A DNA stretch of 64,000 nucleotides, taken from contig CAJNYD010000551.1 of the NCBI GenBank assembly GCA_905331295.1, positions 62,001 to 126,000 on the forward strand, read 5' to 3'. A program made the translations under genes and the position numbers. The notes under the pieces were generated by a model, which saw only the letters and a program-made list of their open reading frames with translations, ran no database searches and had not been told where the DNA came from. Each line of letters begins with the position of its first letter. Positions within the stretch are counted from its first letter, which is position 1. Source of the DNA: Rotaria socialis. Taxonomy: Eukaryota. Positions 36,600-53,700 of the stretch are shown here, in pieces.

Positions 36600-40038
<3,439 letters not shown>

Positions 40039-42652
40039 TTTTGTTTGCATTTGCCTTATCCAATAAATAGAACGAATAGAAAGGACAAGTGAACGAATCA
40101 CATATACGGAGAACGAAAAATAACTTTCTCTTTGTAGTAGAAAATATCTCTCGCACTGCCGAGGGCCCATATGCACGTATATATAATAGACATGACTTGT
40201 GAGCAGCAGTACTTTCGATTATATTGGAATTTTGATTTTCGTTATTATCTCTTCTTAAATTCTACTGAACGCAAAACGCACAACGTCATTCACATATGAC
40301 TAAATCATAGTAAGCGAATGAAACGAATGTTTCTACAGAAAAACGAGATTAACAATTAAAAAAAGTAATACTGGATGTTTTCTAATTAAACTATACTTTA
40401 CTTCCATAGAATAATTTAAATGACAATCGAGAACACAAAATAGTGAAATTAAGGTCAACCTCAATCTAAGGTAGAAGAGATACTTATAGAATTGTTGACA
40501 TTCGAAAAGCTATGCAAGTATTTAGTTGACTAAAAGTTTAGAAAATTAGTTCACGAATTGATTGATTGTTATTGCTTAGGTTTTGAGTTCAAGTTATTTT
40601 TCTCATGGGGTTCTTCGTGAATCTTGTATTTTTGGTATATTCTCATCTCGTTGTCAGAGACTTCAGAAATTTTTATTGGCAAAAAAACTAAAACGCAAAC
40701 AAGAAAAGTTTCTCAATACAAAATGAATGACGTTATTGAATAAAAACTTGGATCTGTCCGGTTTGCCTAGTCTTCAATAGCGATTGTGTGCGTGAGTATT
40801 ACTGAATAGAATATCTTCACGGTTATCCTTACCATAAACGTTTTCACCATAGAGCGTCACAGTATTAAATATGACAGAACAATATCTATTGTTTCTATAC
40901 CATTAAATAGTAGTTAGTTATGGAGTTTGATTATGACATTCCTACGTAGCGCCATCATGTAATGCATCTTTTCTGAACATATCTTTGAGATAAAAATAGG
41001 CGCAGCGTTGATTTCAATCCAGACGTTTATTTACCATTCTGTTTAACCTGTATTGTTGCTAACATTAACTATTTATTTATTCTTCAAATGGGACTATTTG
41101 TAATTGTTAACATATGTTTTCATTGCTACTTCTTACAATTCACGAAAAATCTGCATAATCAATAGTACTCTTAGAAAACAAATATGACCTATATGTGTTT
41201 TTTCTCTCGTTAATGAACATCTGCTAGTTGGCACACCCTCCGTTTTATATTAAATTATTTTCTCTGCTTGTTCTCGTTTGCCTTTCGTTCGCTTACATTC
41301 AACAGGAAAGGGATAAAGGTCCTATTTATTTTTATATATATTCGCAAGGAATGAGAATTAAACTCGTATCTAACGTAAATCCTTTAAAACAATATATACA
41401 GATGAGCTTGACATGGGAACAGAATGTTTTTACATAAAAAGATAGAGACCAGAAGCACCTCAGATGTAAACAATATACTTCAATAAAAAAAAACACCGCC
41501 CCACAACTTTTACATTAAGACAACTTGCATCAGTTGTTTCAAATCAAGATAATACTTGACATTTCATTCCATCATTAGTAAATGCTGCCAGAAATATATT
41601 TAATATCATGAATTTATTTTAATTAGCATATAATAAACAATGCTAAATTATGAAATGCGGTGGTGCTGTGTGTTGAGCGTGCAACAGGACTCACACCTAC
41701 ATTGACCCACTACCGCACCCTTCTGTCAGTGTTCGATACCAGTAAAGAGAAGATCGATTTCTGCACATATACAGTATTAAAAATTGAAAGTTTCGAGTAC
41801 TATAAATTCAATCTTCTTGCGAGAGTACTATTAAAGTTTTAACACTGCTCAAAATTTGGAATTGCAGCTCTAAAGCCTCTGTATAGTTAATCATTCATGT
41901 GATTAAAAACACGAATCGATCTTATTTCAAAAACAAAATGTCGTATTTTTGTTATTTGTACTTAATCATTTTTCAAGTTTTCAATAAGTATCTTACGTTG
42001 TATTTTGTAAAGATTTACGAGCATTTTCGTTACTCAATGGCCGTTCGATACATGATCTAATCTCGGTTGCATACCTTATTTTGCAATGATTTATGATAAA
42101 GCAATAAACGATATCTATATACTCGAGAAAAACTGATAAAATATCATACTTTATAGATGCATAAAAATATTTCTTTTCCAAAATAATCGACTTTCGCGAC
42201 CAATAAAAAAAGTTGCATTTTTTCTATATAAGTGCATAATTCTTAATGAATTAAATTGCAGACTATTCATAAGCTGACCGACGAAAAAATTAGTGACGTT
42301 TAAATTGTGGAAAGTACTGAGTTTTTGAATAATATCTAAAAAATAGGCTAAATAATACTGGAAGATATATTTATATCATAGAAGCAATTGATATAGTTGT
42401 GTACTGTATGGAAGATTACAGGTCCATACTATGAGCAAGCAGTGTACGTCGAGGGTGATGCGAATGCAGGCCCCGGTTTTCATATTTTATGTCCCACAGA
42501 GTGTATTAAGATTATCTTGAATTCTATATATCTATACACCCCTTTTAGATTCTTTCAATAATTGCAATTACTATTGTTATTCTATACAATAAAACAAGTT
42601 TCTCTGTCGACCAGACTTTGTATACACAAATTTGGCAACAACAAACAATCAA

Positions 42653-44527
42653 ATGTTCATAAAGGCTTTCTTTCTATTGATCAGCTATTGTTATGCAGCT
42701 GAGGTAAGACTTCATTTAATCTAAGCATCTTTTATAAGTACTAAATCTATGAGCACCAAGATCTAAACGCTAAAATAGAAATGAAGTCTTCCTACAATAG
42801 AAATGAATTAATTGACGCTAAATTATTCTTATTATATGTCATAATAATAATAATAATAATATTGTTCTTTTTAGAAACTATCATCGTACAATGTCGATCC
42901 AAGTGAAACATCTGTCTCTGGTTTGTCATCTGGTGCATTTTTTGCCACACAAATGCACGTAGCATTTTCGGCTTCAATAAAAGGTGCGGGAATCGTAGCC
43001 GGTGGCCCATATAATTGTGCAGGGCAAACGAGTTATACAGGTTGCATGTACACGAGTAGTCCATCGATTACTCAATCTATTTCAAATACAAAATCATGGA
43101 GTGGAAACAAAATTGATGACATAAAAAATCTAGCAAAGCAGAGAATTTACATGATCTCCGGAACTGCAGACAGCACTGTGGGTCCTTCAGTCATGAATCA
43201 ATTATATAAATACTATGTAACTGACGGTAAATTCATTCCAAGTGAAAATGTTGTATTCAAAAAAGATCTGAATTCGGCACATACATTTCCCACTGATTTT
43301 GATAGTGCTGGTAATAATGGTTGTGGATCCACAAGTAGTCCTTACATAAGCAATTGCGGCTTTGATGGAGCACGAGCTATACTTGAACATATTTATGGAC
43401 CATTGAAACCAAGAAATAATGGAGCATTAACAGGAAAATTTATTGAATTTAATCAAGACGAATTCATTGCCAGCGCCAGAGCTAACGGAATGAGTACTAC
43501 GGCGTGGGTTTATGTACCTAAAAGTTGTTCTGATGGAGATACTTGTAGATTACATCTTGCTTATCATGGTTGCTTGCAAGGCTACGAAAAAATTTCTGAT
43601 AAATACGTTAAAAATACAGGATACAATCGTTGGGCTGATACCAACAATTTCATAATTTTATATCCACAAGCGGTAGCAACAAATACAGTCAACTCAGCAG
43701 GTGGAGCATCAATTCCAAACCCGAATGGTTGCTGGGATTGGGTGGGTTGGTACGGAGCTGATTTTAGCGTTAAAAGTGGTAAACAATCTGCAGCTGCGAA
43801 AAAAATGATTGATCGTATCACGAGCGGTTTTAATCCCATCGATGCACCGACAGAACTTCAGGTTCTTGCAACTACTGACAATCAAGTTACTCTTGGATGG
43901 AGAGCAGTTTCAAGTGCAACTGGTTATAATCTTTACCGAAATGGTGCTAAAGCTAATAGTGGAATAATAACTGGTACAACATTTACAAATAATAATTTAA
44001 ATTCGGGTACATCATATACATATACGGTCAAAGCTGTTTCATCGGCAGGCTCTGAAAGTGCGGCATTCAATTCAGTAACTGGTAAAACAACAGGTGCACC
44101 ACCAGCTATAAGTGCACCGGACGGATTAACAGCTTCGGATATATCTAGTAATTCGATGACTTTGAATTGGAATTCAGTTTCCGGTGTAACAACATATAAT
44201 GTTTATCGCGATGGGAATAAGTTGACCAGTGTTAGTCTCACATCATACGCTGATAAAAACTTGGTTTCTGGAACTAGTTATCGATATCAAGTTTCTTCAG
44301 TAAAAGATTCGTCTGAAAGTGAAAAATCCAATGAATTACAAGCAACAACACTTACTGAAAAGGTATGTTTCAATGATAATAACTTTAATCACGTAGCTCA
44401 ACGCAGAGCTATTAACAGCATGGGCTATGCATTAGCTGTTGGTTCAAATCAAAATATGGGACTTTACAATTTATTTGTAAAAACAAATCTATGCAAGACA
44501 AAAGAAAACTACTACGAAATCAACTAG
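42653..44527 (+). CDS. phaZ: Secreted poly(3-hydroxybutyrate) depolymerase (PhaZ-like; catalytic type II + 2x FN3 + PHB-binding domain), 2 exons, about 567 aa
   Basis: Exon 1 42653-42703 encodes signal peptide MFIKAFFLLISYCYAAE. Intron 42704-42874 (GTAAG...TTTTAG, phase 0). Exon 2 42875-44527 begins KLSSYNVDPSETSVSGLSSGAF and has the lipase box GLSSG, GTADSTV (Asp), AHTFPTD (His), YHGCLQ and NPNGCWDWVG, then two FN3 repeats and a C-terminal NNFNHVAQRRA...AVGSNQNMGLYN...YY substrate-binding motif. Confidence 0.92.
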
Positions 44528-45435
44528 TCGGAATATGAATAGAAAACAAGCCTAAGTCCAACAATTAAAATAAACATTTTCAAACAGTATACTTTCCATT
44601 CATAAAATCATTTATTGCTACAATGAATTCTATTTTAATTATTTTTTTATTTGATTGTGCCGTTATGATTCATTTTTCCAATATTCATATTTTAAATGAA
44701 TAATTCACATCTGTATATTTACTACATTTTGTCTATAACAACAAAGGGTGGGGGACGTCAACAGCCGAAATCGCCCCCCCCCCTGTCTTTTTATTTTTCA
44801 TTATGCTAGTTTTGACGCTACATCGACATTTTAAGCCACGTTTAATCATTATATAAAATCTAGACATCATCTGCATTACTTTTTCTATTGCACTAAAATC
44901 CACTGTATTTCCTTTGGGGAACCGATCATTTTAATGAAATATTTCAGTTATCATTGTTCATATTTATCTTAATTTACCCGTCGGATTGTAGCCCTTGTCA
45001 CGCTCTCTTTGATGGTATGTCAACATATGAGAAAAGCTACTGAATTTTATTATGACATCGCCGGCACATCATACAAAAGATCTAGTAAAGGTGTATACCG
45101 ATGATGGTATTTCTCGCAAAATACTTAGGTAACAATGTCGGTTCACTCTTATTTACATATTATTCGATAGAGAATTTCGAGATCTACAAAATGATGATAA
45201 AAAAAATACGAAACGTGTGCAGAAAGACAGTTTCGCTTTTCTTGATACTGAACTTTGCGTTCGGCATTTCTTTGTCGTTGGTTCGATATTTTTCACTTTT
45301 TTGTGTAGAATTTTCTTATAGTATCTAGCGTATTGAGTATTCAGTATTCATGGTGTTTATGAATTATAAAATGTCAAATGACCAAAATTGCATTCAGATA
45401 CTGGAAAAATAAAAACAGGCATTGACTGATAAAAT

Positions 45436-45541
45436 CAAGGGGGAAAAGCTGATTCTATGGCGATAGAATCATCGGAATCATATAGAATCAATAAAGTCAC
45501 ATAGAATCAGTAGAATTACGGAATCAGCTTTTTCCTCCTTG
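45436..45541. mobile_element. 106-bp hAT-type MITE
   Basis: TIR CAAGGGGGAAAAGCTGATTC (45436-45455) vs GAATCAGCTTTTTCCTCCTTG (45521-45541). Perfect 8-bp TSD GATAAAAT at 45428-45435 and 45542-45549. The interior consists of TAGAATCA-like repeats. Confidence 0.88.
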
Positions 45542-47106
45542 GATAAAATGCTCTCGCGGTTGGGAAAGGCGAATCATGAGAATATGCACATTCGCAAGTA
45601 GTTTTCTTAAGTTAAGTTGTATACTCATTTTGTTTATACTGTTCACGCCAGAAATCGAAAAGAATACAAAAAAAGTAGTCAAACTCTTTTATATTAAGTG
45701 TTAACTGCGGTGCTTTCAACGTATCAAGTACATTTACATACATGGTGATAAATTCATCCAAAATGCCATGCAACGTTGATTTAGTCAAAGAATCGTATTT
45801 TTAAAACGCTAGCATCTGATTGGATTGGATTTCCTACGAGAAACATCATTTCTAACTCGATGGGTATATTCATGTTCACAGCGGGCAAATATCGACGCTT
45901 TCATTGGTCACGGGATCCTACCTTTCTTAAAGAATTCTCTTAAAACTTAGACTCACAAAAACTATTCTTTTTGTATGCGAAGATTCAGAATTTCAAGCTG
46001 CACAAGATGCTCGATTTGATATAGATTGACTTTTGTTGTAACTGGATAACAATGCCGAAATGTTTTCACTACCGTGAAAGTGCACCAAAAAATCGATAAT
46101 TGGGTAGCTTTGTAGTCGGCTTTGAAGACAGTAGAAATTAGTATCCCCATGTGCTTTTCTGTCTAAAAGCAAATACGCTTCGGCGCTTTCTCATAGTGCC
46201 TTTAAATAGTAAATAGAATACTATGTAGCAAAGAACGATGACACCTTACTCGAGTTAAGTGGCGAACAAATAGCGTTTTTGTTGCTTTCAATACTTTCGG
46301 TGCTACAATAGAACAGTACATATCTATTCAAAACTGAATAGATCAATAAAATCTGCTTGAAATGCTCTACCTTTTAGCACCAGAACCAAATTTTTCAGTA
46401 GAGTCTAACTAGAGAAAAAAGCCTATCAAAAGCCGGAAATTTCTTCTGTCTTACCCGTTAAGAAATATATTTTGATTTCCTACTGATATTTATGAGTCAA
46501 TAGAAAACGTCTACTCTATGTATACTCCATAATGTGATTTGTAAGCAATCACTGACGAATGAATTCGAAAGCAAAACTGAAGCTTGCGTCAACTTCTATA
46601 AATTTCCAAAGAAAAATGTCTAATGAAATAGAGCAAACTACATTGAAAAATTGCTTGAACCAAAAAGAAATGAATGAGTGAACCAAATCAAAGTTGACGA
46701 GTGGAAGAAATTACATATATATTTGTATTATGTATTTATTGTTTTCAAGCTGCGTATTTACAATGGAATACGATGGTTCTGTAACACTTAAGTAGTGAAA
46801 AGAGATTTTATTTTAACGCGGTTTTGAATTTCAAACCATTTTTTTCAATGCTTATTCTTAATTTGATCAAATTTTTTTTAAGTCAAAGTCCAATTCGCAC
46901 ATCACTGCATTGACCTCATTTGAACTTTTATATGAAAGTTTTCTCGAATTATGTTTTTGTTCTGTTGCTATCTTGGATTCAATTGAGATCATTCTTTTCA
47001 AGAAAATATAATCTTCAAGCAATTATAAGATTTCATGGAAATGAAAATCTAATGCATTTCTTTTTGCTAACTATTTTATTAATTCATAATATTTTTCGAA
47101 AAAAAA

Positions 47107-47623
47107 TCACGCCATTCGTTTACGAATAAATCTCAAAGCTAGACGCTTAGTGAATTCTCGTTTACGTAGCGCACGTCGCTTGTCATCATCATCATCGTCG
47201 TCATCATCATCATCATCACTATCGTCCGAATCACTACCATTTCGTTTCTTCTTTAATACTTGACGTTTTCGTTTAATATTGATTTCTCGTTTTTTATCTT
47301 CGCATACGCTATCATTATTTTCTCGTTCCAATGCCGACGATTCATCATAATGAGCACAATAGCCACGCAAAATTGCTCGATTCTTGACTGAATCATGTTG
47401 TCGTGCAGCAATATCCATGGCTTGTTCGCAAACATCTTCTCGCCATTGATCATCATCTGAATCCGAACTTGAATCATCATCACGACGACGCAATTCTCGA
47501 TATTCTTCCGGGCATGAACGGCGACGATTCGGTGAAGAGTTCACTCGAGCATTGACGACGATGAGTAACGCCATGAAGAAAATGAACGTTGAAACCGAAC
47601 TAATTTTAAGTAAAAAAATTCAT
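47107..47623 (-). CDS. Orphan, probably secreted Asp/Arg-rich protein with 4 Cys; signal peptide apparently frameshifted
   Basis: 155-aa ORF at 47107-47574. The in-frame upstream codons LLKISSVSTFIFF join the ATG at 47623 if one A is removed from the A7 run at 47612-47618. Confidence 0.6.
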
Positions 47624-49455
47624 GTTTTTTCGAATCTTTGTCTCACTAAACTATTCAGTTGCTTACTGCATATTGTCGGTTTCTATCTGATGTGTGTCTC
47701 GTTGATCAAGAAAATGATTTCAGTACGTCGTAGTTTAATCATAAGAGAAAACGAAGAAAAAGAGAAACAAAGAAGAAAAAAAATATTAGCCTAACCACGC
47801 AAACAGAATAAAGAAAAAGATTGTTAAGTTGTGATTAAAGAGACTACATAACTAACCATGTATGCAAATTTCTTATTTGGCTTCAGTTTCCTCTTCTCAT
47901 TGTTTATTCTGTTTTCCATAATATGAACAATGCTAATCACTACTTCCTGTTTGATTAATTTTACATTCTTAAAGCTTCGATCTAGGGATGGAAAAAATGA
48001 AATAGAATATTTTATATATTGATAAGTGACGACGCACATCCCTGATGCATCCAATACAGGATTTCAAGTCTGTCTCACATATTGACATTTTTCTCTTGAA
48101 CAATATCTTTTTAAATAAACATGTCATTTTCGTTCGAGTTCATGCCTAGAAAATCGAACTCAGTATGGATTCCTGTTGGTTGCAAGACGGAACACAAATT
48201 CACAGTTCCGTTTTAATAACCACAGAACATGGACTGCGTTACCAAAAATGATGTAAACATTTCAAAACTTTTTGACAAATGGGGAGAAGTCGTCTACTTC
48301 CAGGACATGTCAACATCAACTTAAAGAAAAGAAAATCACTTAGCTGTCGACTTACTTATGTCAATTTCATATAATTATAGATTCTGTCGATGAACGAGAA
48401 AGTTAAGTAACTTGTGTGGATATATAATGAGGAAAAACGAAGAAAGCAAAAATCACCATATAATAGTGTCATGCTTAAGCTACACTTACAGAGAATTCGC
48501 CTGACCATAAAATCAATCATGAAAGCGGTTTTTGCTCAGAACAAGTAATTTATCGAATTTCATTGCTCAATTCAATGATAAATGATCATTCACGAAGAAT
48601 TGGTTGCGACAGAATTGAATCCGGCCGATGTGATTTTTTTTATCTGTGTCGGTAATATTAGAAACGATCGGATCGAACCATTTGTATTGACGACATGCCA
48701 ATATTAGTCATTTTTCATTGTCCTGATTCTATTGTTCATCAAATTATCCCTATGATTAATCATGTCTACAGTCCAATCCCAAGAATAATGAGATAAACGC
48801 CTTTGTTTCGGCTCTTTCTATAATCATTACAAGTTTATAAGAAACGGACATCGCATATAAATATTCAATCTGCTTTTTACATATTGTCTTTGCATGATTG
48901 CAAAAATGAACGAGTGAAAATTGAATTCATCTTCATAGACAAGTACATCGTCTCACGCACAAGTTTTTAAGTGGCTCATCTACGATTATTATCTGGCGCG
49001 TTTCCTTATTCTCACTTAACATCGATTAGATCAGTGATAAAACGCTACAGAAAAATCCGAGGTTCGAGGGAATTAAACTGGTTAAATTGTTTTTTTTAAT
49101 TAAATGATAGCTCGATTATCGTCTTTTGTATTCATTCAATTAGGATCGTATTTTCTCTGACATTCTTATTTGAACAAGATAATATTCAATATAAATTACA
49201 TTGCTGATTACATTTATTTTCATTTGAAAAACAAAACTCTACTGAATAGCACCGTTAACAAAAAAATGAGAAAACCAAAAAAAGGTGTAAAAGCATAGGC
49301 TCAAAAACAAAAAAAGAAACATGCCAAATGAGATTTTGCGTCAGACTTTCATTGCAAAAAAAAAGAATCTTTATACAGAAAACAAACAAACGATGCATTC
49401 AGTGTAAAGAACATTAAAATCAGAGGATAGATGTGTAAGATACTGCATGAATATG

Positions 49456-50756
49456 TTATTTGTCACGTTGATCTCCTGTTGTCGTATTAAATTGAGCTAA
49501 ACTTGATGGCCAATAACGATTTATATTCGATATTTGTCGATTAGGAGTATGATGATGATGATGATGTTGATCATCTGATTCGGTTTCATACCGTTTCTTC
49601 TTTTTATTAGCTGCTAGGTCAGGATTCGATGCTTCAAGCATTGGTTGTAAAATTCGTCGACGTGCATTTATAAACCAATTATTTACTTGAAGTAAAGATA
49701 AATTCGTTTTCTGTGATATTGCTCGTTTTTCATCTTCCGTTGGATAAGGATGAACCTATGAAGAGAAGGAAAAAATATAGAATTTTAGAAATAAACGGAT
49801 GATCAGTTAGTTACAATATGTTGAAACAGCCAACTGCGCATTATTGATGTTGCACTTTTAGGAAGAACACCACGTTTCGACGGTGATGATGACGATGAAA
49901 CCATTATTGATGATTTTCGTCTCTTTGTACAAAATGAATCAAATAGCAGCGAGGAAGAATCAATGTCATGCGATGGACCACTAGACATTATTTGTGAAAA
50001 AGGTGTTTGACCATTGAATTGTGTTGTATATGGATTGGACATAGGATTTAGACCATTGTGCACTACTGACTGTTTACTAGAAACAAGAAGAAAAATGATA
50101 AAGATATTTCAGTTCAATAACTAGAGAAAGGATTAAATGATAAATGAAACATGTTCTGCTATTTTCGAGACAAAAACAAAAGGGAAATCTTACCCATAAT
50201 ATTGTTCTTTTAAAATACTTTTATCATTAATTGTAAATTCATCATCATCATTTTCTTCACTCGATTCAAAATTATCATCAATATTCGATTGAAAATCTTC
50301 GTCATCGTCATCTTCATCATCGGTAAAAATGTTATTTGCATTTAATTTAACTTTAAGACAAGCTATGTAACGTTGACAAAAATCCCGACATAAATCATTG
50401 ACTTTATCGAGTTCCAATAGATGTATACGAAGAACTTGCATTGCATCAATATAAAAATTATCAATTACTGACGATGCTTCATCCTTATGTTTCGGTGTTG
50501 TTAATAGGTCAGGATTTTTCGATAAGAATATTTTTAAATTATGTTCAAATGATGATGATGGCGTAAACGACTCGTTATTATTTAATAATAATGGTGGATT
50601 TGATGTAGCTTGTTCGCATCGTTCAAGTACATAGACAAGTACAGAAAATAATGGATGTTTATAAATTAAGTTTTTTTGAGCAGCTAGTAATTGAATATTA
50701 TTTGAATCAAGACGATTTTCATCATTATCATCATCAGATGATGAAGTCGACGACAT
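49456..50756 (-). CDS. PKNOX: TALE-class homeobox protein PKNOX/PREP, 3 exons
   Basis: MEINOX domain ([49 protein letters not shown]) and homeodomain [31 protein letters not shown]...[20 protein letters not shown]. These residues match PKNOX rather than MEIS. Confidence 0.92.
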
Positions 50757-53700
50757 TATGTATTTTTTATCGCCTACTAAAAAATTCGTACTATTGCATG
50801 TATGTACGATGAGAATTGTACAGGCAGAAAAAGAAAAGAACAATCTGTGATTGGTCGGAAACGAACTATTTTTTATTCAACAAAGAAAAGAGAAATGATT
50901 TTTGGCGTTCGATTAATTTCATTTGCGTTTTTCAGTCTTAAATTTTGGTAAATTTCCGCATAGAGGACAAGTGATTAATTCTGATTGGTCGATTACAAAA
51001 TAATACTGCGTCTTGCGACTGTTACTGTACGTTTCTTGTTTGTTCTGTTATTTATCACGAAAAGCGTAGCTACTATTCACTAGCGTCCTGCTCGGTAAAA
51101 TTGAGGTTAAACAAGATATGAAATTCAAAAGGGTAGAAGAGCAAAAGCAACAAACCACTATTTTTATCTCTTCTTTTCTTCTATCCATTTAGGATACTTA
51201 TCTTTCAGCTGCAAAGCTTTCTTCATTATCACCGGGCTAATGTAGTACATTTGATATGCTAACTATGTACCACACTTGCTAGCGGTAGATAATGAATAGA
51301 GATTTATTGATACATGTGTGCTTTTTGTGGTTTGCTATATTTTCATATTATGTCATGTTTATCCTAATAATAGCTATTGAATATGAAAGACAATTTTCAT
51401 TGAATATTTTGATTTCATATAGAGTTTTAAGAATCGATCTAAAGGATTAGTGATTGTTTTCCTGTTAGCACTTCGTATGAACAGTTTAACAGTAACATGC
51501 TCCTTTCTAATTGCCCGCATTACATATATATGATCATTTGAAAATCGACTCTCACAATTGTCTATCAATGCAAATCCATTCAGATGGGCAAAACGTATTG
51601 CCAATAATGCCCGAATTCATGCATAACAGTTTTATATATAAATCTAAGCTAACATTCGTGTTTTTTTTTCTCACACACAAATTGAAACACACTACAGTAG
51701 CAGCTGATGATAATGCATGCTAGTAATTCTCTACAGACGAGAAGATGTATAGACTGCTGTTCTCTTCTTTTAGACATCTGTCTCACAGGCACGCGTACTT
51801 TTCAGCCGTCTATCATTATCATCGGTTATTTTAAGAATATTAACATTAATGGATGGTTCCAACAAAGATTGCACAGTGATAAGCCTATTGATTAATTTAG
51901 TTTATATTTCTGTCATATAATAAACGGTATGACTAATAAATATCGAATAGATTTTCTTATTCGATTAAACTTCTAATAGAAACATGTTTCAATCATTCTT
52001 TTTCTCTACCGTAATAAGAAACCATTTTGTTACGTTTATCACATCTTTATTGCCAAGTAAATTGATAGGCCTTCATGTCGAATCGATATGAGAATTCAAG
52101 GGAAATTGTGTAGATTAACTATCATTTATATTTACTTTATCGATTCAGGAATGTTTTTCCTCTTCATACAATTATTCATATAGGAAATATGCTAACATGA
52201 ATGTACCAGATGAATTCTATATCATGTTTTTTGAAAACTAGATTTTAATATACAATTCATCGAATAATAATTGTAAATTTTGGAGAAAACTATGTTTTTT
52301 GGTAAACATTTCTCAAATGAGTGCTAGTTTAGACTAATTAAATTGAGCTAATTTGTATCGATTATCAGTGCGAAATATGAGTACTCTTAAATAACGGGTA
52401 TTCGTTTAATAGATATATTAATTATTGTAAAATTTTGAAGAGTTAGTCGACTCGATGAATTAATCAGTTGCCGAACTTGTTTAAGATCAGTTTAATATTT
52501 TCAAATGGAAGTTAGATTGCGTGTGCAAAACGTTTTCGTTTAGTTAAATCCATGCGACGGAGTTTTATTTTCCGAGAATTTATCTAATCTAACGTATACT
52601 AATTGTGTCTGCATGAATGAATCTGGAAAATATTTGGACTAGGCATTTATAGAGAAAGTAGAATATCTTTGTATTTGTAATCTTAGCGTGAAAAAATGCA
52701 GGAACAGCAAATTAATTTAGGATATACTTTTCTTGTATGATTCAAAAAGGCTTTTTGAAAAAGCTGCTCACTAGAAGCCTTGAACGTTCCTTTTTTGGTA
52801 AAAAACAATTATATACTGCCTCTCAAATAGCAGGAGTGTCATAGTTTACGTGCAAATATGTGTCTACAGTGGCCGATAGTTATTAGTTAGATCCATGCTT
52901 GAATCGGATGCAAGAAATCTTCATCCGATCTCGGATACATTGATGAGCATTATGATAAACCACAGCACCGAAAACTTGTTATCAGTAAAGGAGGCGTACA
53001 CATTTTTTTTGCAATCTGCTTCAAACAACCCAGTCTATATATATATATATATCGAAAACAATAATAATCCTGGCATCGGGTAAAATGTCGTAAAGCCTTT
53101 AAACAAATTTCCGTAATTAAAAGTCAGTTAGTCACGTTCGGATTATGTCAGGATTTTAGCGAACAAAACAAAATAATTGCGATCTTACCTTCTATCGCTA
53201 AATCACATTGCAAAGAAACAGCTTCATTGAGTGTTTTCCAACGGAAAACAACGAACGTTCCATTGGTGGAGAATGATTCTACCAATTACCGTAATTCAGA
53301 AACACTTGCTTTTTGACAGTTTCGGACTTGGTGCAACAGGTAGGACTTTTCAAAATCAGAAAGACGAATTTAATTGATCGACAAGATGCTGTCTACACTA
53401 TCGTTTTAGTAGTCCATGCTATGATATGCTTTATTGAAGATAATGAGTAAGAATATTTCTGACATGCGACGTCATGGCATTCTAAACTTTCTCAAGCCAG
53501 CAGTATCCGTCTTGATTTTCTTTATAAACTGTATAATAAATACGGTCAGAAATCAAAAACAGTTGCCTAACGAAAAATATTTCAGCTGTATGGATCATAG
53601 AAAAATCTGTCGGTCATTATTTTTCTATGCGCCTGAAACAATTCAACAAACTAATACTTTTAACATTATCCATCGAAAAAAATATTTTCTATTAATGCTA

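What the first reader, a model, noticed from the sequence alone, without database searches (positions are those of the whole stretch)
42653..44527. Complete bacterial-type extracellular PHB depolymerase encoded in an animal genome
Seen in sequence: signal peptide, GLSSG lipase box near the N-terminus, Asp (GTADSTV), His (AHTFPT), oxyanion HGC motif, two FN3 repeats and a C-terminal HV..RA...GSNQNMGLYN domain. Established knowledge: this is the modular architecture of secreted short-chain-length PHA depolymerases with catalytic domain type II (Comamonas/Delftia/Streptomyces PhaZ); the Penicillium enzyme has the catalytic domain only. Inference: a horizontally acquired, intact enzyme that lets a bacterivorous animal digest bacterial PHB storage granules, and possibly bioplastic. 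HGT is known to be common in bdelloid rotifers, so how novel this particular gene is needs checking.
Basis: partly seen in the sequence, partly recalled or inferred. Interest (0 to 1): 0.9.

Follow-up and report, generated by a model that had tools for sequence, protein, structure and literature searches.

The report
Rotifer's borrowed bacterial bioplastic-digesting enzyme
A tiny freshwater animal (a bdelloid rotifer) carries and splices a gene, likely taken long ago from bacteria, for an enzyme predicted to break down the natural plastic that bacteria store as food; other animals already have a simpler, separately inherited version, so this is a real but moderate twist on a known ability.

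Summary
The gene is real. It has two exons (42653-42703, 42875-44527), and the 567-aa product is identical to a protein annotated in Rotaria socialis. It passes NCBIfam's type-2 extracellular PHA depolymerase cut-off (370 vs 280 bits), keeps Ser35/Asp116/His153, and carries two FN3 linkers and a bacterial-type substrate-binding domain.

It is not contamination. Contigs of two runs from two studies skip the intron exactly, one begins with a match to the rotifer spliced leader, and an Adineta vaga relative lies on an 18-Mb contig. Eight named bdelloid species hold the family.

In trees the bdelloid copies form one clade among bacterial and unnamed sequences. Grouping with the inherited animal enzymes (p-AU 6e-5) or the fungal ones is rejected, so an old horizontal transfer is likely; the donor is unidentified.

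Novelty is lower than claimed. Zeidler et al. 2026 showed active depolymerases in nine animal phyla and flagged bacterial-like bdelloid homologues as 'recent transfer or contamination'. This locus argues for an old, domesticated transfer of the full modular enzyme. Activity and gut expression are untested, and this copy's binding motif is degenerate.

The parts
42547..42548 (+). AG after a T-rich tract: inferred trans-splice acceptor for the rotifer spliced leader
   Evidence: Contigs of runs X9 and X13 both begin to fit at 42547. X13 carries 23 loose letters before it which, with the AG, match the published 23-nt rotifer leader but for two single-base insertions in homopolymer runs. A 19-nt core of the leader has 0 matches in the window at up to 3 mismatches. 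One contig only, from a related organism (95-99% alike).
42549..42652 (+). 5' UTR
   Evidence: Covered by X9 record 13 and X13 record 6.
42653..42703 (+). Exon 1: 17 codons, likely signal peptide (about 15 aa) plus AE
   Evidence: Hydrophobic stretch by inspection; pLDDT under 50 for residues 1-13.
42704..42874 (+). 171-nt phase-0 GT-AG intron
   Evidence: Skipped exactly by X9 record 13 (record positions 160 to 161) and X13 record 6 (179 to 180) (table 8; the joints table 5 listed none). A 49-nt GT-AG intron lies at the same place in loci L055 and L057.
42875..43831 (+). Catalytic domain, type-2 extracellular short-chain PHA depolymerase (aa 18-336). Ser35 at 42926-42928, Asp116 at 43169-43171, His153 at 43280-43282, oxyanion His248-Gly-Cys250 at 43565-43573
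   Evidence: NF050059 369.9 bits. Aligned to 2D80/2D81, where the S39A change falls on the residue matching Ser35. Model vs 2D81: TM 0.94 by target, rmsd 2.1.
43832..44092 (+). FN3 linker 1 (about aa 337-423)
   Evidence: Pfam fn3. 47-58% identical to the FN3 of three Chitinimonas enzymes.
44105..44353 (+). FN3 linker 2 (about aa 428-510)
   Evidence: Pfam fn3 best stretch.
44354..44527 (+). C-terminal bacterial-type PHA substrate-binding domain (aa 511-567) and stop; HxxAGRa motif altered to HVAQRRA; bdelloid-specific cysteine shift
   Evidence: A profile from 16 bacterial genome loci scores it 60.6 bits and hits 0 of 14 named animal PHADs. Cysteine pattern 36 of 36 vs 0 of 118.
44528..44704 (+). 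3' UTR, end approximate
   Evidence: Contigs reach 44690 (X9), 44704 (X13) and 44746 (X14); contigs cannot show a true end.
37276..40066 (-). Context: multi-exon RecQ-family helicase gene, divergent from the depolymerase (5' limit approximate)
49456..50756 (-). Context: multi-exon MEIS/PKNOX (TALE) homeobox gene (limits approximate)
   Evidence: Pfam Meis_PKNOX_N E 3.3e-28; homeodomain-like exon by inspection.

Best explanation
This is a two-exon, spliced bdelloid rotifer gene encoding a complete type-2 extracellular PHA depolymerase (catalytic domain, two FN3 linkers, substrate-binding domain), likely acquired once from a bacterial lineage before Rotaria and Adineta split, and predicted to be secreted and to hydrolyse the PHB granules of eaten bacteria. 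Mechanism: the signal peptide would route the enzyme to the gut lumen or digestive vacuoles (inferred). The C-terminal domain would adsorb to the surface of PHB released and denatured when prey cells lyse, with the FN3 pair as spacer (from established knowledge of the bacterial family). Ser35, activated by His153 and Asp116 with an oxyanion hole at His248-Gly-Cys250, would cut ester bonds to give 3-hydroxybutyrate monomers and oligomers, used as carbon (residues shown; activity inferred from homology). After transfer the gene was domesticated: one intron, leader trans-splicing, AT-rich codons, purifying selection and duplication. My odds: real host gene 0.98; horizontal origin separate from the animal clade 0.93; active on PHB 0.85; main role in digesting prey PHB 0.65.
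For: Family: NF050059 above cut-off; 2D80/2D81 sequence and fold match. Host gene: model identical to P0002, seen on 6 contigs of up to 254 kb; intron skipped in 2 of 4 runs laid, from 2 studies, while the other 2 do not reach it; leader match in 1 contig; A. vaga P0560, 72% identical without gaps, on an 18.1-Mb contig; Rotaria relatives on 1.27- and 1.45-Mb contigs; 8 named species in two genera; same intron position in L055 and L057. GC3 is 0.25, against 0.15-0.19 in 6 of 6 neighbouring ORFs and 0.82-0.87 in two Chitinimonas genes. dN/dS is 0.16 vs L055 and 0.20 vs L057 (0.11 for the catalytic domain). Origin: bdelloid group one clade, 99/84, inside a 100/99 branch of bacterial, fungal and unnamed rows and apart from the animal+protist branch, 95/94; same layout under a mixture model, quick search; AU rejects bdelloid+animal and bdelloid+fungi. 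The catalytic domain is 58-61% identical to four Chitinimonas enzymes and 35-39% to two monogonont rotifer (Brachionus) PHADs. FN3 and binding domains are also bacterial-like. Related animal and fungal enzymes are proven active (PMC13642032).
Against: No assay and no tissue expression; the runs are only guessed to be RNA, although splicing implies it. The sxxxHxxAGRa binding motif (PMC7199957) is degenerate in this copy (s to N, A to Q, G to R); only 20 of 42 bdelloid-group domains keep HxxAGR, against 112 of 134 others. The donor is not identified: the nearest rows, P0104 (100/97) and P0046, are unnamed environmental proteins, P0383 looks eukaryotic, and the C-terminal tree weakly joins the bdelloids to an amoeba protein, P0378 (80/91). 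AU tests used LG+G4 without a mixture model, on 79 rows that I chose from 329; the careful mixture search did not finish. dN/dS rests on two unnamed loci that may be paralogues, with dS 0.75-1.7; a third comparison (L056) was saturated. Linkage to the flanking genes rests on the window assembly and on contig lengths, not on independent reads.
Confidence: 0.75

Rival explanations
1. The gene is a real transferred depolymerase homologue, but in rotifers its job has drifted: it acts as a general secreted esterase or on other polyesters or biofilm, and the binding domain of this copy no longer grips PHB.
For: Degenerate binding motif in R. socialis and R. magnacalcarata. The hairpin loop at the active-site mouth (the Pro281-Gly319 region of the fungal enzyme, PMC9601781) is less hydrophobic than in 2D80 and varies among bdelloid copies. 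C-terminal dN/dS is 0.38 against 0.11 for the catalytic domain. Several paralogues are diverged or truncated.
Against: The triad, the hydrophobic x1 residue (Leu) of the lipase box, HGC and the CWDW segment are kept. His and RA of the motif are kept in 41 of 42 bdelloid-group domains, and A. vaga, A. steineri and three Rotaria copies keep HxxAGRA whole. Much more distant animal homologues are active on PHB.
Confidence: 0.12
2. The gene reached bdelloids from another microbial eukaryote (a protist) that had itself taken it from bacteria.
For: The nearest rows are unnamed (P0104, P0046, P0383). The Luapelamoeba hula protein P0378 has the same four-part architecture and joins the bdelloids at 80/91 in the C-terminal tree.
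Against: P0378 lies outside the bdelloid-containing branch in both catalytic-domain trees. The C-terminal join is unstarred, and four bdelloid rows have an odd letter make-up. P0378 may be a bacterial sequence from the culture. A fungal donor is rejected.
Confidence: 0.1
3. It descends vertically from the ancestral animal PHA depolymerase and later gained FN3 and binding domains.
For: Animals, including monogonont rotifers, have type-2 PHADs; FN3 domains are common in animals.
Against: AU test: log-likelihood 173 lower, p 5.7e-5. Identity is higher to bacteria than to Brachionus. The FN3 domains are 47-58% identical to bacterial depolymerase FN3 and 14-28% to the animal FN3 structures listed.
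Confidence: 0.02
4. It is a bacterial contaminant or a mis-assembly.
For: Zeidler et al. left this open for their bdelloid sequences. No independent read-through to the flanking genes was obtained here.
Against: Spliced intron, leader match, host-like base composition, eight named species, Mb-scale contigs, animal neighbours.
Confidence: 0.01

Closest known systems
Bacterial extracellular dPHA-scl depolymerases, catalytic domain type 2 (NCBIfam NF050059; validated members in Acidovorax, Caldimonas, Comamonas, Delftia, Schlegelella, Streptomyces per PMC2666664); best named full-length relatives Chitinimonas spp., 52-55% identical
   Same: Signal peptide, N-terminal lipase box, Ser-Asp-His order, C-terminal oxyanion motif, FN3 linker, C-terminal binding domain. 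The two-FN3 layout also occurs in Chitinimonas and Oxalobacteraceae proteins.
   Different: Intron, trans-spliced leader, short eukaryote-style signal peptide, AT-rich codons, loss of the C-terminal cysteine with gain of an internal one, degenerate binding motif in this copy.
Penicillium funiculosum PHB depolymerase (PDB 2D80, 2D81)
   Same: Fold (TM 0.94 by target, 50% identity) and catalytic residues.
   Different: The fungal enzyme is catalytic domain only; bdelloid+fungi monophyly is rejected.
Vertically inherited animal and protist PHADs (Zeidler et al. 2026, PMC13642032)
   Same: Type-2 catalytic domain, signal peptide, proposed digestive role in microbe feeders.
   Different: Separate clade (AU p 5.7e-5). 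About 35-46% identity. 0 of 14 named animal proteins tested carry the bacterial binding domain; longer animal PHADs listed in that paper were not examined.
The 'bdelloid PHAD homologues' of Zeidler et al. (five A. vaga proteins of 369-395 aa in Supplementary Table 2)
   Same: [quoted passage not shown]
   Different: Too short to hold two FN3 plus the binding domain, whereas this family is 567 aa. No Rotaria protein is among that table's 198 rows. Whether they belong to the same clade could not be checked: their sequences, Supplementary Fig. 15 and Table 7 were not readable.

Membership tests
Extracellular dPHA-scl depolymerase, catalytic domain type 2 | Score above the curated family cut-off (NF050059) | tested here: met
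   369.9 bits vs 280; the type-1 model scores 88.6 vs 150, not met.
Extracellular dPHA-scl depolymerase, catalytic domain type 2 | Gx1Sx2G lipase box near the N-terminus with hydrophobic x1 | tested here: met
   GLSSG at 33-37, x1 = Leu.
Extracellular dPHA-scl depolymerase, catalytic domain type 2 | Ser-Asp-His triad with the oxyanion hole C-terminal to it | tested here: met
   Ser35, Asp116, His153 and His248-Gly-Cys250 align with 2D80/2D81; fold match. The roles of the fungal Asp, His and Cys are recalled, consistent with the Fig. 2 legend.
Extracellular dPHA-scl depolymerase, catalytic domain type 2 | Linker domain (FN3, Thr-rich or cadherin-like) | tested here: met
   Two FN3.
Extracellular dPHA-scl depolymerase, catalytic domain type 2 | C-terminal substrate-binding domain homologous to the bacterial one | tested here: met
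   60.6 bits on a profile of 16 bacterial loci; 47-56% identity to six of seven named bacterial domains shown, 48% to the seventh at a lower score.
Extracellular dPHA-scl depolymerase, catalytic domain type 2 | Exact sxxxHxxAGRa motif in the binding domain | tested here: inconclusive
   This copy keeps H, R and a but not s, A or G. The exact HxxAGR is also missing from 22 of 134 non-bdelloid domains, and is intact in the A. vaga and A. steineri copies.
Extracellular dPHA-scl depolymerase, catalytic domain type 2 | Cleaved signal peptide and secretion | tested here: inconclusive
   Inspection only: hydrophobic 15-residue N-terminus in its own exon; no predictor available.
Extracellular dPHA-scl depolymerase, catalytic domain type 2 | Hydrolysis of denatured PHB | not testable with these tools
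   Needs an assay.
Vertically inherited animal PHAD clade (Zeidler 2026) | Groups with animal and protist PHADs | tested here: not met
Domesticated horizontally acquired bdelloid gene | Physically and transcriptionally a host gene (intron, leader, animal neighbours, long contigs) | tested here: met
Domesticated horizontally acquired bdelloid gene | Nested among non-metazoan sequences, metazoan grouping rejected | tested here: met
Domesticated horizontally acquired bdelloid gene | Identified donor lineage | tested here: inconclusive
   The nearest rows are unnamed.

The most novel reading that the evidence does not exclude
Bdelloid rotifers lost the inherited, catalytic-only animal PHA depolymerase and replaced it with a complete bacterial modular enzyme whose binding domain lets them erode solid, crystalline PHB. 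That would make them animals equipped like bacterial bioplastic degraders and real consumers of PHA in ponds, moss and wastewater. The hints are weak: no named bdelloid protein is among the best 120 of 2146 hits to a frog PHAD, while two Brachionus proteins are, and Zeidler et al. report their bdelloid homologues outside the animal clade.
Probability: 0.3. Interest if true: 0.68.

Novelty: new variant of a known kind. Interest (0 to 1): 0.45.

Why it matters
A 2026 paper argues that animals inherited PHA depolymerases from protist ancestors and leaves the bdelloid exception open as 'recent transfer or contamination'. This locus shows that at least one bdelloid family is neither contamination nor recent: it is intron-bearing, spliced, likely trans-spliced, under purifying selection and shared by Rotaria and Adineta. 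It points to a second, independent route by which animals gained access to bacterial carbon stores, and it supplies a direct test of what the bacterial binding domain adds over the catalytic-only animal enzymes. The surprise is limited, because horizontal transfer of catabolic enzymes is routine in bdelloids and animal PHB digestion is already published.

Tried and rejected
- No whole genome is held for this window, so paralogues, and the presence or absence of an animal-type PHAD in this species, could not be tested.
- Independent read support across RecQ, the depolymerase and PKNOX was not obtained; that link rests on the window assembly.
- The ESM Atlas gave no answer for the binding domain.
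- The careful mixture-model tree did not finish in two runs; only the quick tree is used.
- Synteny: ORF pieces of L057-L060 matched the window only at the depolymerase. L057/L058 flanks carry other gene pieces (5 of 13 pieces hit Pfam), so no shared neighbourhood was seen.
- No mobile-element signature: repeats in 38000-52000 were short or low-complexity, and Rfam gave 0 matches in the window.
- A fungal donor was considered because of the strong 2D80 match and rejected.
- Chitinimonas as direct donor was considered because of the shared architecture. It is not supported, since Chitinimonas forms its own branch.
- dN/dS against L056 was saturated and is not used.
- The 8 runs with word shares of 0.25 or less were not used as habitat evidence; 2 of them (X13, X14) were laid.
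- Earlier findings of this scan: none by sequence or by words.
- No complex prediction was run, as no binding between proteins is claimed.

Full report
1. The observation. The span 42653-44527 holds a two-exon gene. Exon 1 (42653-42703) encodes 17 residues with a hydrophobic N-terminus, a 171-nt GT-AG intron follows in phase 0, and exon 2 (42875-44527) encodes 550 residues. The spliced 567-aa product is identical to P0002, labelled Rotaria socialis by NCBI; three allelic proteins differ at 1-3 positions. NCBIfam's type-2 extracellular PHA depolymerase model scores 369.9 bits against a cut-off of 280, and the type-1 model stays below its cut-off. The catalytic domain matches the Penicillium funiculosum enzyme by sequence (E 1.5e-99) and by fold (model pLDDT 86.4 from a 43-row alignment; TM 0.94 by target, rmsd 2.1). 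The S39A change of 2D81 falls on the residue aligned to Ser35.

2. It is a host gene, not contamination. Four of the 20 runs listed were laid on the gene. All are Logan contigs and only guessed to be RNA. In 2 of the 4 (X9, study P3, at least 99% alike; X13, study P5, 95-99% alike) a single contig runs from 42703 straight to 42875. The other two (X11, X14) do not reach the intron, and the tool's joints table listed nothing, so the evidence is the record positions in table 8. Both spliced contigs begin to fit at the AG at 42547. X13 has 23 loose letters before it, which with that AG match the 23-nt rotifer spliced leader printed in PMC3795323 Table 1, apart from two extra bases in homopolymer runs. 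The leader's core is absent from the window (0 matches). PMC1925144 states that bdelloids trans-splice such a leader onto more than half of their transcripts. This rests on one contig from a related organism.

The neighbours are animal genes in exon pieces: RecQ helicase, MEIS/PKNOX, Na/H exchanger and myosin VI. GC3 is 0.25, near the 0.15-0.19 of 6 of 6 neighbouring ORFs and far from 0.82-0.87 in two Chitinimonas genes. Named family members occur in R. socialis, R. magnacalcarata, R. sordida, R. sp. Silwood1 and Silwood2, Adineta steineri, A. ricciae (partial) and A. vaga. The A. vaga protein is 567 aa, 72% identical without gaps, and lies on an 18.1-Mb contig. A 49-nt intron sits at the same position in two unnamed metagenome loci with 81% and 64% protein identity (L055, L057). 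Approximate dN/dS (Nei-Gojobori) is 0.16 against L055 (217 codons) and 0.20 against L057 (0.11 catalytic, 0.38 C-terminal); L056 was saturated, and these loci may be paralogues. Independent reads across the flanking genes were not obtained.

3. Origin. Of 385 proteins examined, 329 covered the catalytic domain; I chose 79 for the main tree (LG+G4). The 16 bdelloid-group rows (10 named, 6 assigned by similarity) form one clade (99/84). It lies inside a 100/99 branch of Chitinimonas, Burkholderiales, fungi and unnamed environmental proteins, away from the animal+protist branch (95/94) that holds the monogonont rotifer Brachionus. Forcing bdelloids with animals costs 173 log units (p-AU 5.7e-5) and with fungi 115 (p-AU 1e-61); both tests lack a mixture model. 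A 49-row mixture-model tree gives the same layout, but only the quick search finished. Catalytic-domain identity is 58-61% to Chitinimonas and 35-39% to Brachionus.

The FN3 and C-terminal domains are bacterial-like as well, so the modular gene likely came over whole. All 36 of 36 bdelloid-group binding domains that the pattern could score have an internal cysteine and no C-terminal one; all 118 of 118 others show the reverse (near-identical rows included). That supports a single origin and suggests a re-routed disulfide (inferred). The donor is not identified. A protist intermediate is therefore not excluded. Presence in both Rotaria and Adineta dates the gain before their split (inferred).

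4. How it likely works. Shown: the residues, domain order, splicing and conservation. From established knowledge (passages of PMC2666664 and PMC11893044): such enzymes adsorb to denatured PHA by the C-terminal domain and cut ester bonds with the Ser-Asp-His triad. Inferred: secretion into the gut or digestive vacuoles, where granules freed from lysed prey become denatured, the argument made for worms in PMC13642032, and use of the released 3-hydroxybutyrate. That bdelloids feed on bacteria is recalled, not from a call. Against a fully canonical role: the binding motif sxxxHxxAGRa (PMC7199957) reads HVAQRRA here; 20 of 42 bdelloid-group domains keep HxxAGR against 112 of 134 others, although 41 of 42 keep His and RA; and the loop at the active-site mouth is variable among copies.

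5. What is known. Zeidler et al. 2026 (PMC13642032) report 195 PHADs in 66 animal species from nine phyla, with activity shown for enzymes from a gutless oligochaete, a sponge, an earthworm and a springtail. [quoted passage not shown] I read the abstract, sections 9, 10, 15, the first part of section 6, found passages, and Supplementary Tables 1 and 2 whole. Table 2 lists five A. vaga proteins of 369-395 aa and no Rotaria protein. Supplementary Fig. 15, Table 7 and the FASTA files could not be read and may include this family. In the held library, the search for bdelloid + horizontal gene transfer + depolymerase returned only that paper; searches showed no other on this gene in their listings. 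Most subscription papers are not searched. PMC4632278 (passages) gives 575 (adjusted 763) foreign genes in R. socialis, about half or fewer shared with Adineta (51%, adjusted 42%), mostly enzymes. All other papers cited were seen as passages only.

6. Verdict. It works like, and on every sequence feature testable here but the exact binding motif qualifies as, a bacterial type-2 extracellular PHA depolymerase; it is not a member of the inherited animal clade. It is a new variant of a known kind: an old, domesticated transfer of the full modular enzyme into bdelloids, which bears on a question left open in print. The bolder reading, replacement of the native animal enzyme and digestion of solid PHA, has only weak support (0 named bdelloid and 2 Brachionus proteins among the best 120 of 2146 hits to a frog PHAD) and could not be tested without a genome. 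Interest 0.45.

Noticed in passing
protein P0378 (Luapelamoeba hula, EukProt): An amoeba transcript encodes the same catalytic + 2xFN3 + binding-domain architecture. It could be an independent transfer, a shared eukaryotic source, or a bacterial sequence from the culture.
   Followed up: partly
window 43294-43636: Run X11, labelled with the same organism code as the best DNA holders, has a second contig with 49 differences in 343 letters, and X9 a short one with 10 in 108: likely an expressed paralogue. Rotaria species show three or more diverged copies.
   Followed up: no
window 44354-44524: All scored bdelloid-group binding domains lost the C-terminal cysteine and gained one at position 557 (36 of 36 vs 0 of 118), suggesting a re-routed disulfide with Cys515.
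   Followed up: partly
L055:502-1153; protein P0124: The reading frame of some relatives stops near residues 228-234, which may mark a second intron or a frameshift in those copies.
   Followed up: no
proteins P0029, P0030, P0031, P0032 and cluster members: Bdelloid-group copies in metagenomes are labelled 'chitodextrinase' or 'hypothetical' by prokaryotic gene callers, which start them inside exon 2, so rotifer genes can pass as bacterial depolymerases in metagenome surveys.
   Followed up: no
protein P0021 (Rotaria sordida): The annotated protein ends in a homeodomain (PF00046) in place of the last part of the binding domain; probably a gene-model fusion with a neighbour.
   Followed up: no
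one search hit list: Amphibians carry several animal-type PHAD paralogues each, and lampreys also have them.
   Followed up: no
window 47107-47619 (-): An Asp/Arg-rich low-complexity ORF of 155-170 aa lies between the depolymerase and PKNOX, with only a weak compositional Pfam hit.
   Followed up: no
window 44745-44900: A short G-run/C-run element lies after the gene; an X11 contig matches 44787-44900 and continues into unrelated sequence, so it is probably a dispersed repeat.
   Followed up: no
L057:7009-10850: The neighbours of a distant bdelloid-group copy include a STIG1-like piece, a caspase-like domain with LRRs and a GT10 fucosyltransferase piece.
   Followed up: no
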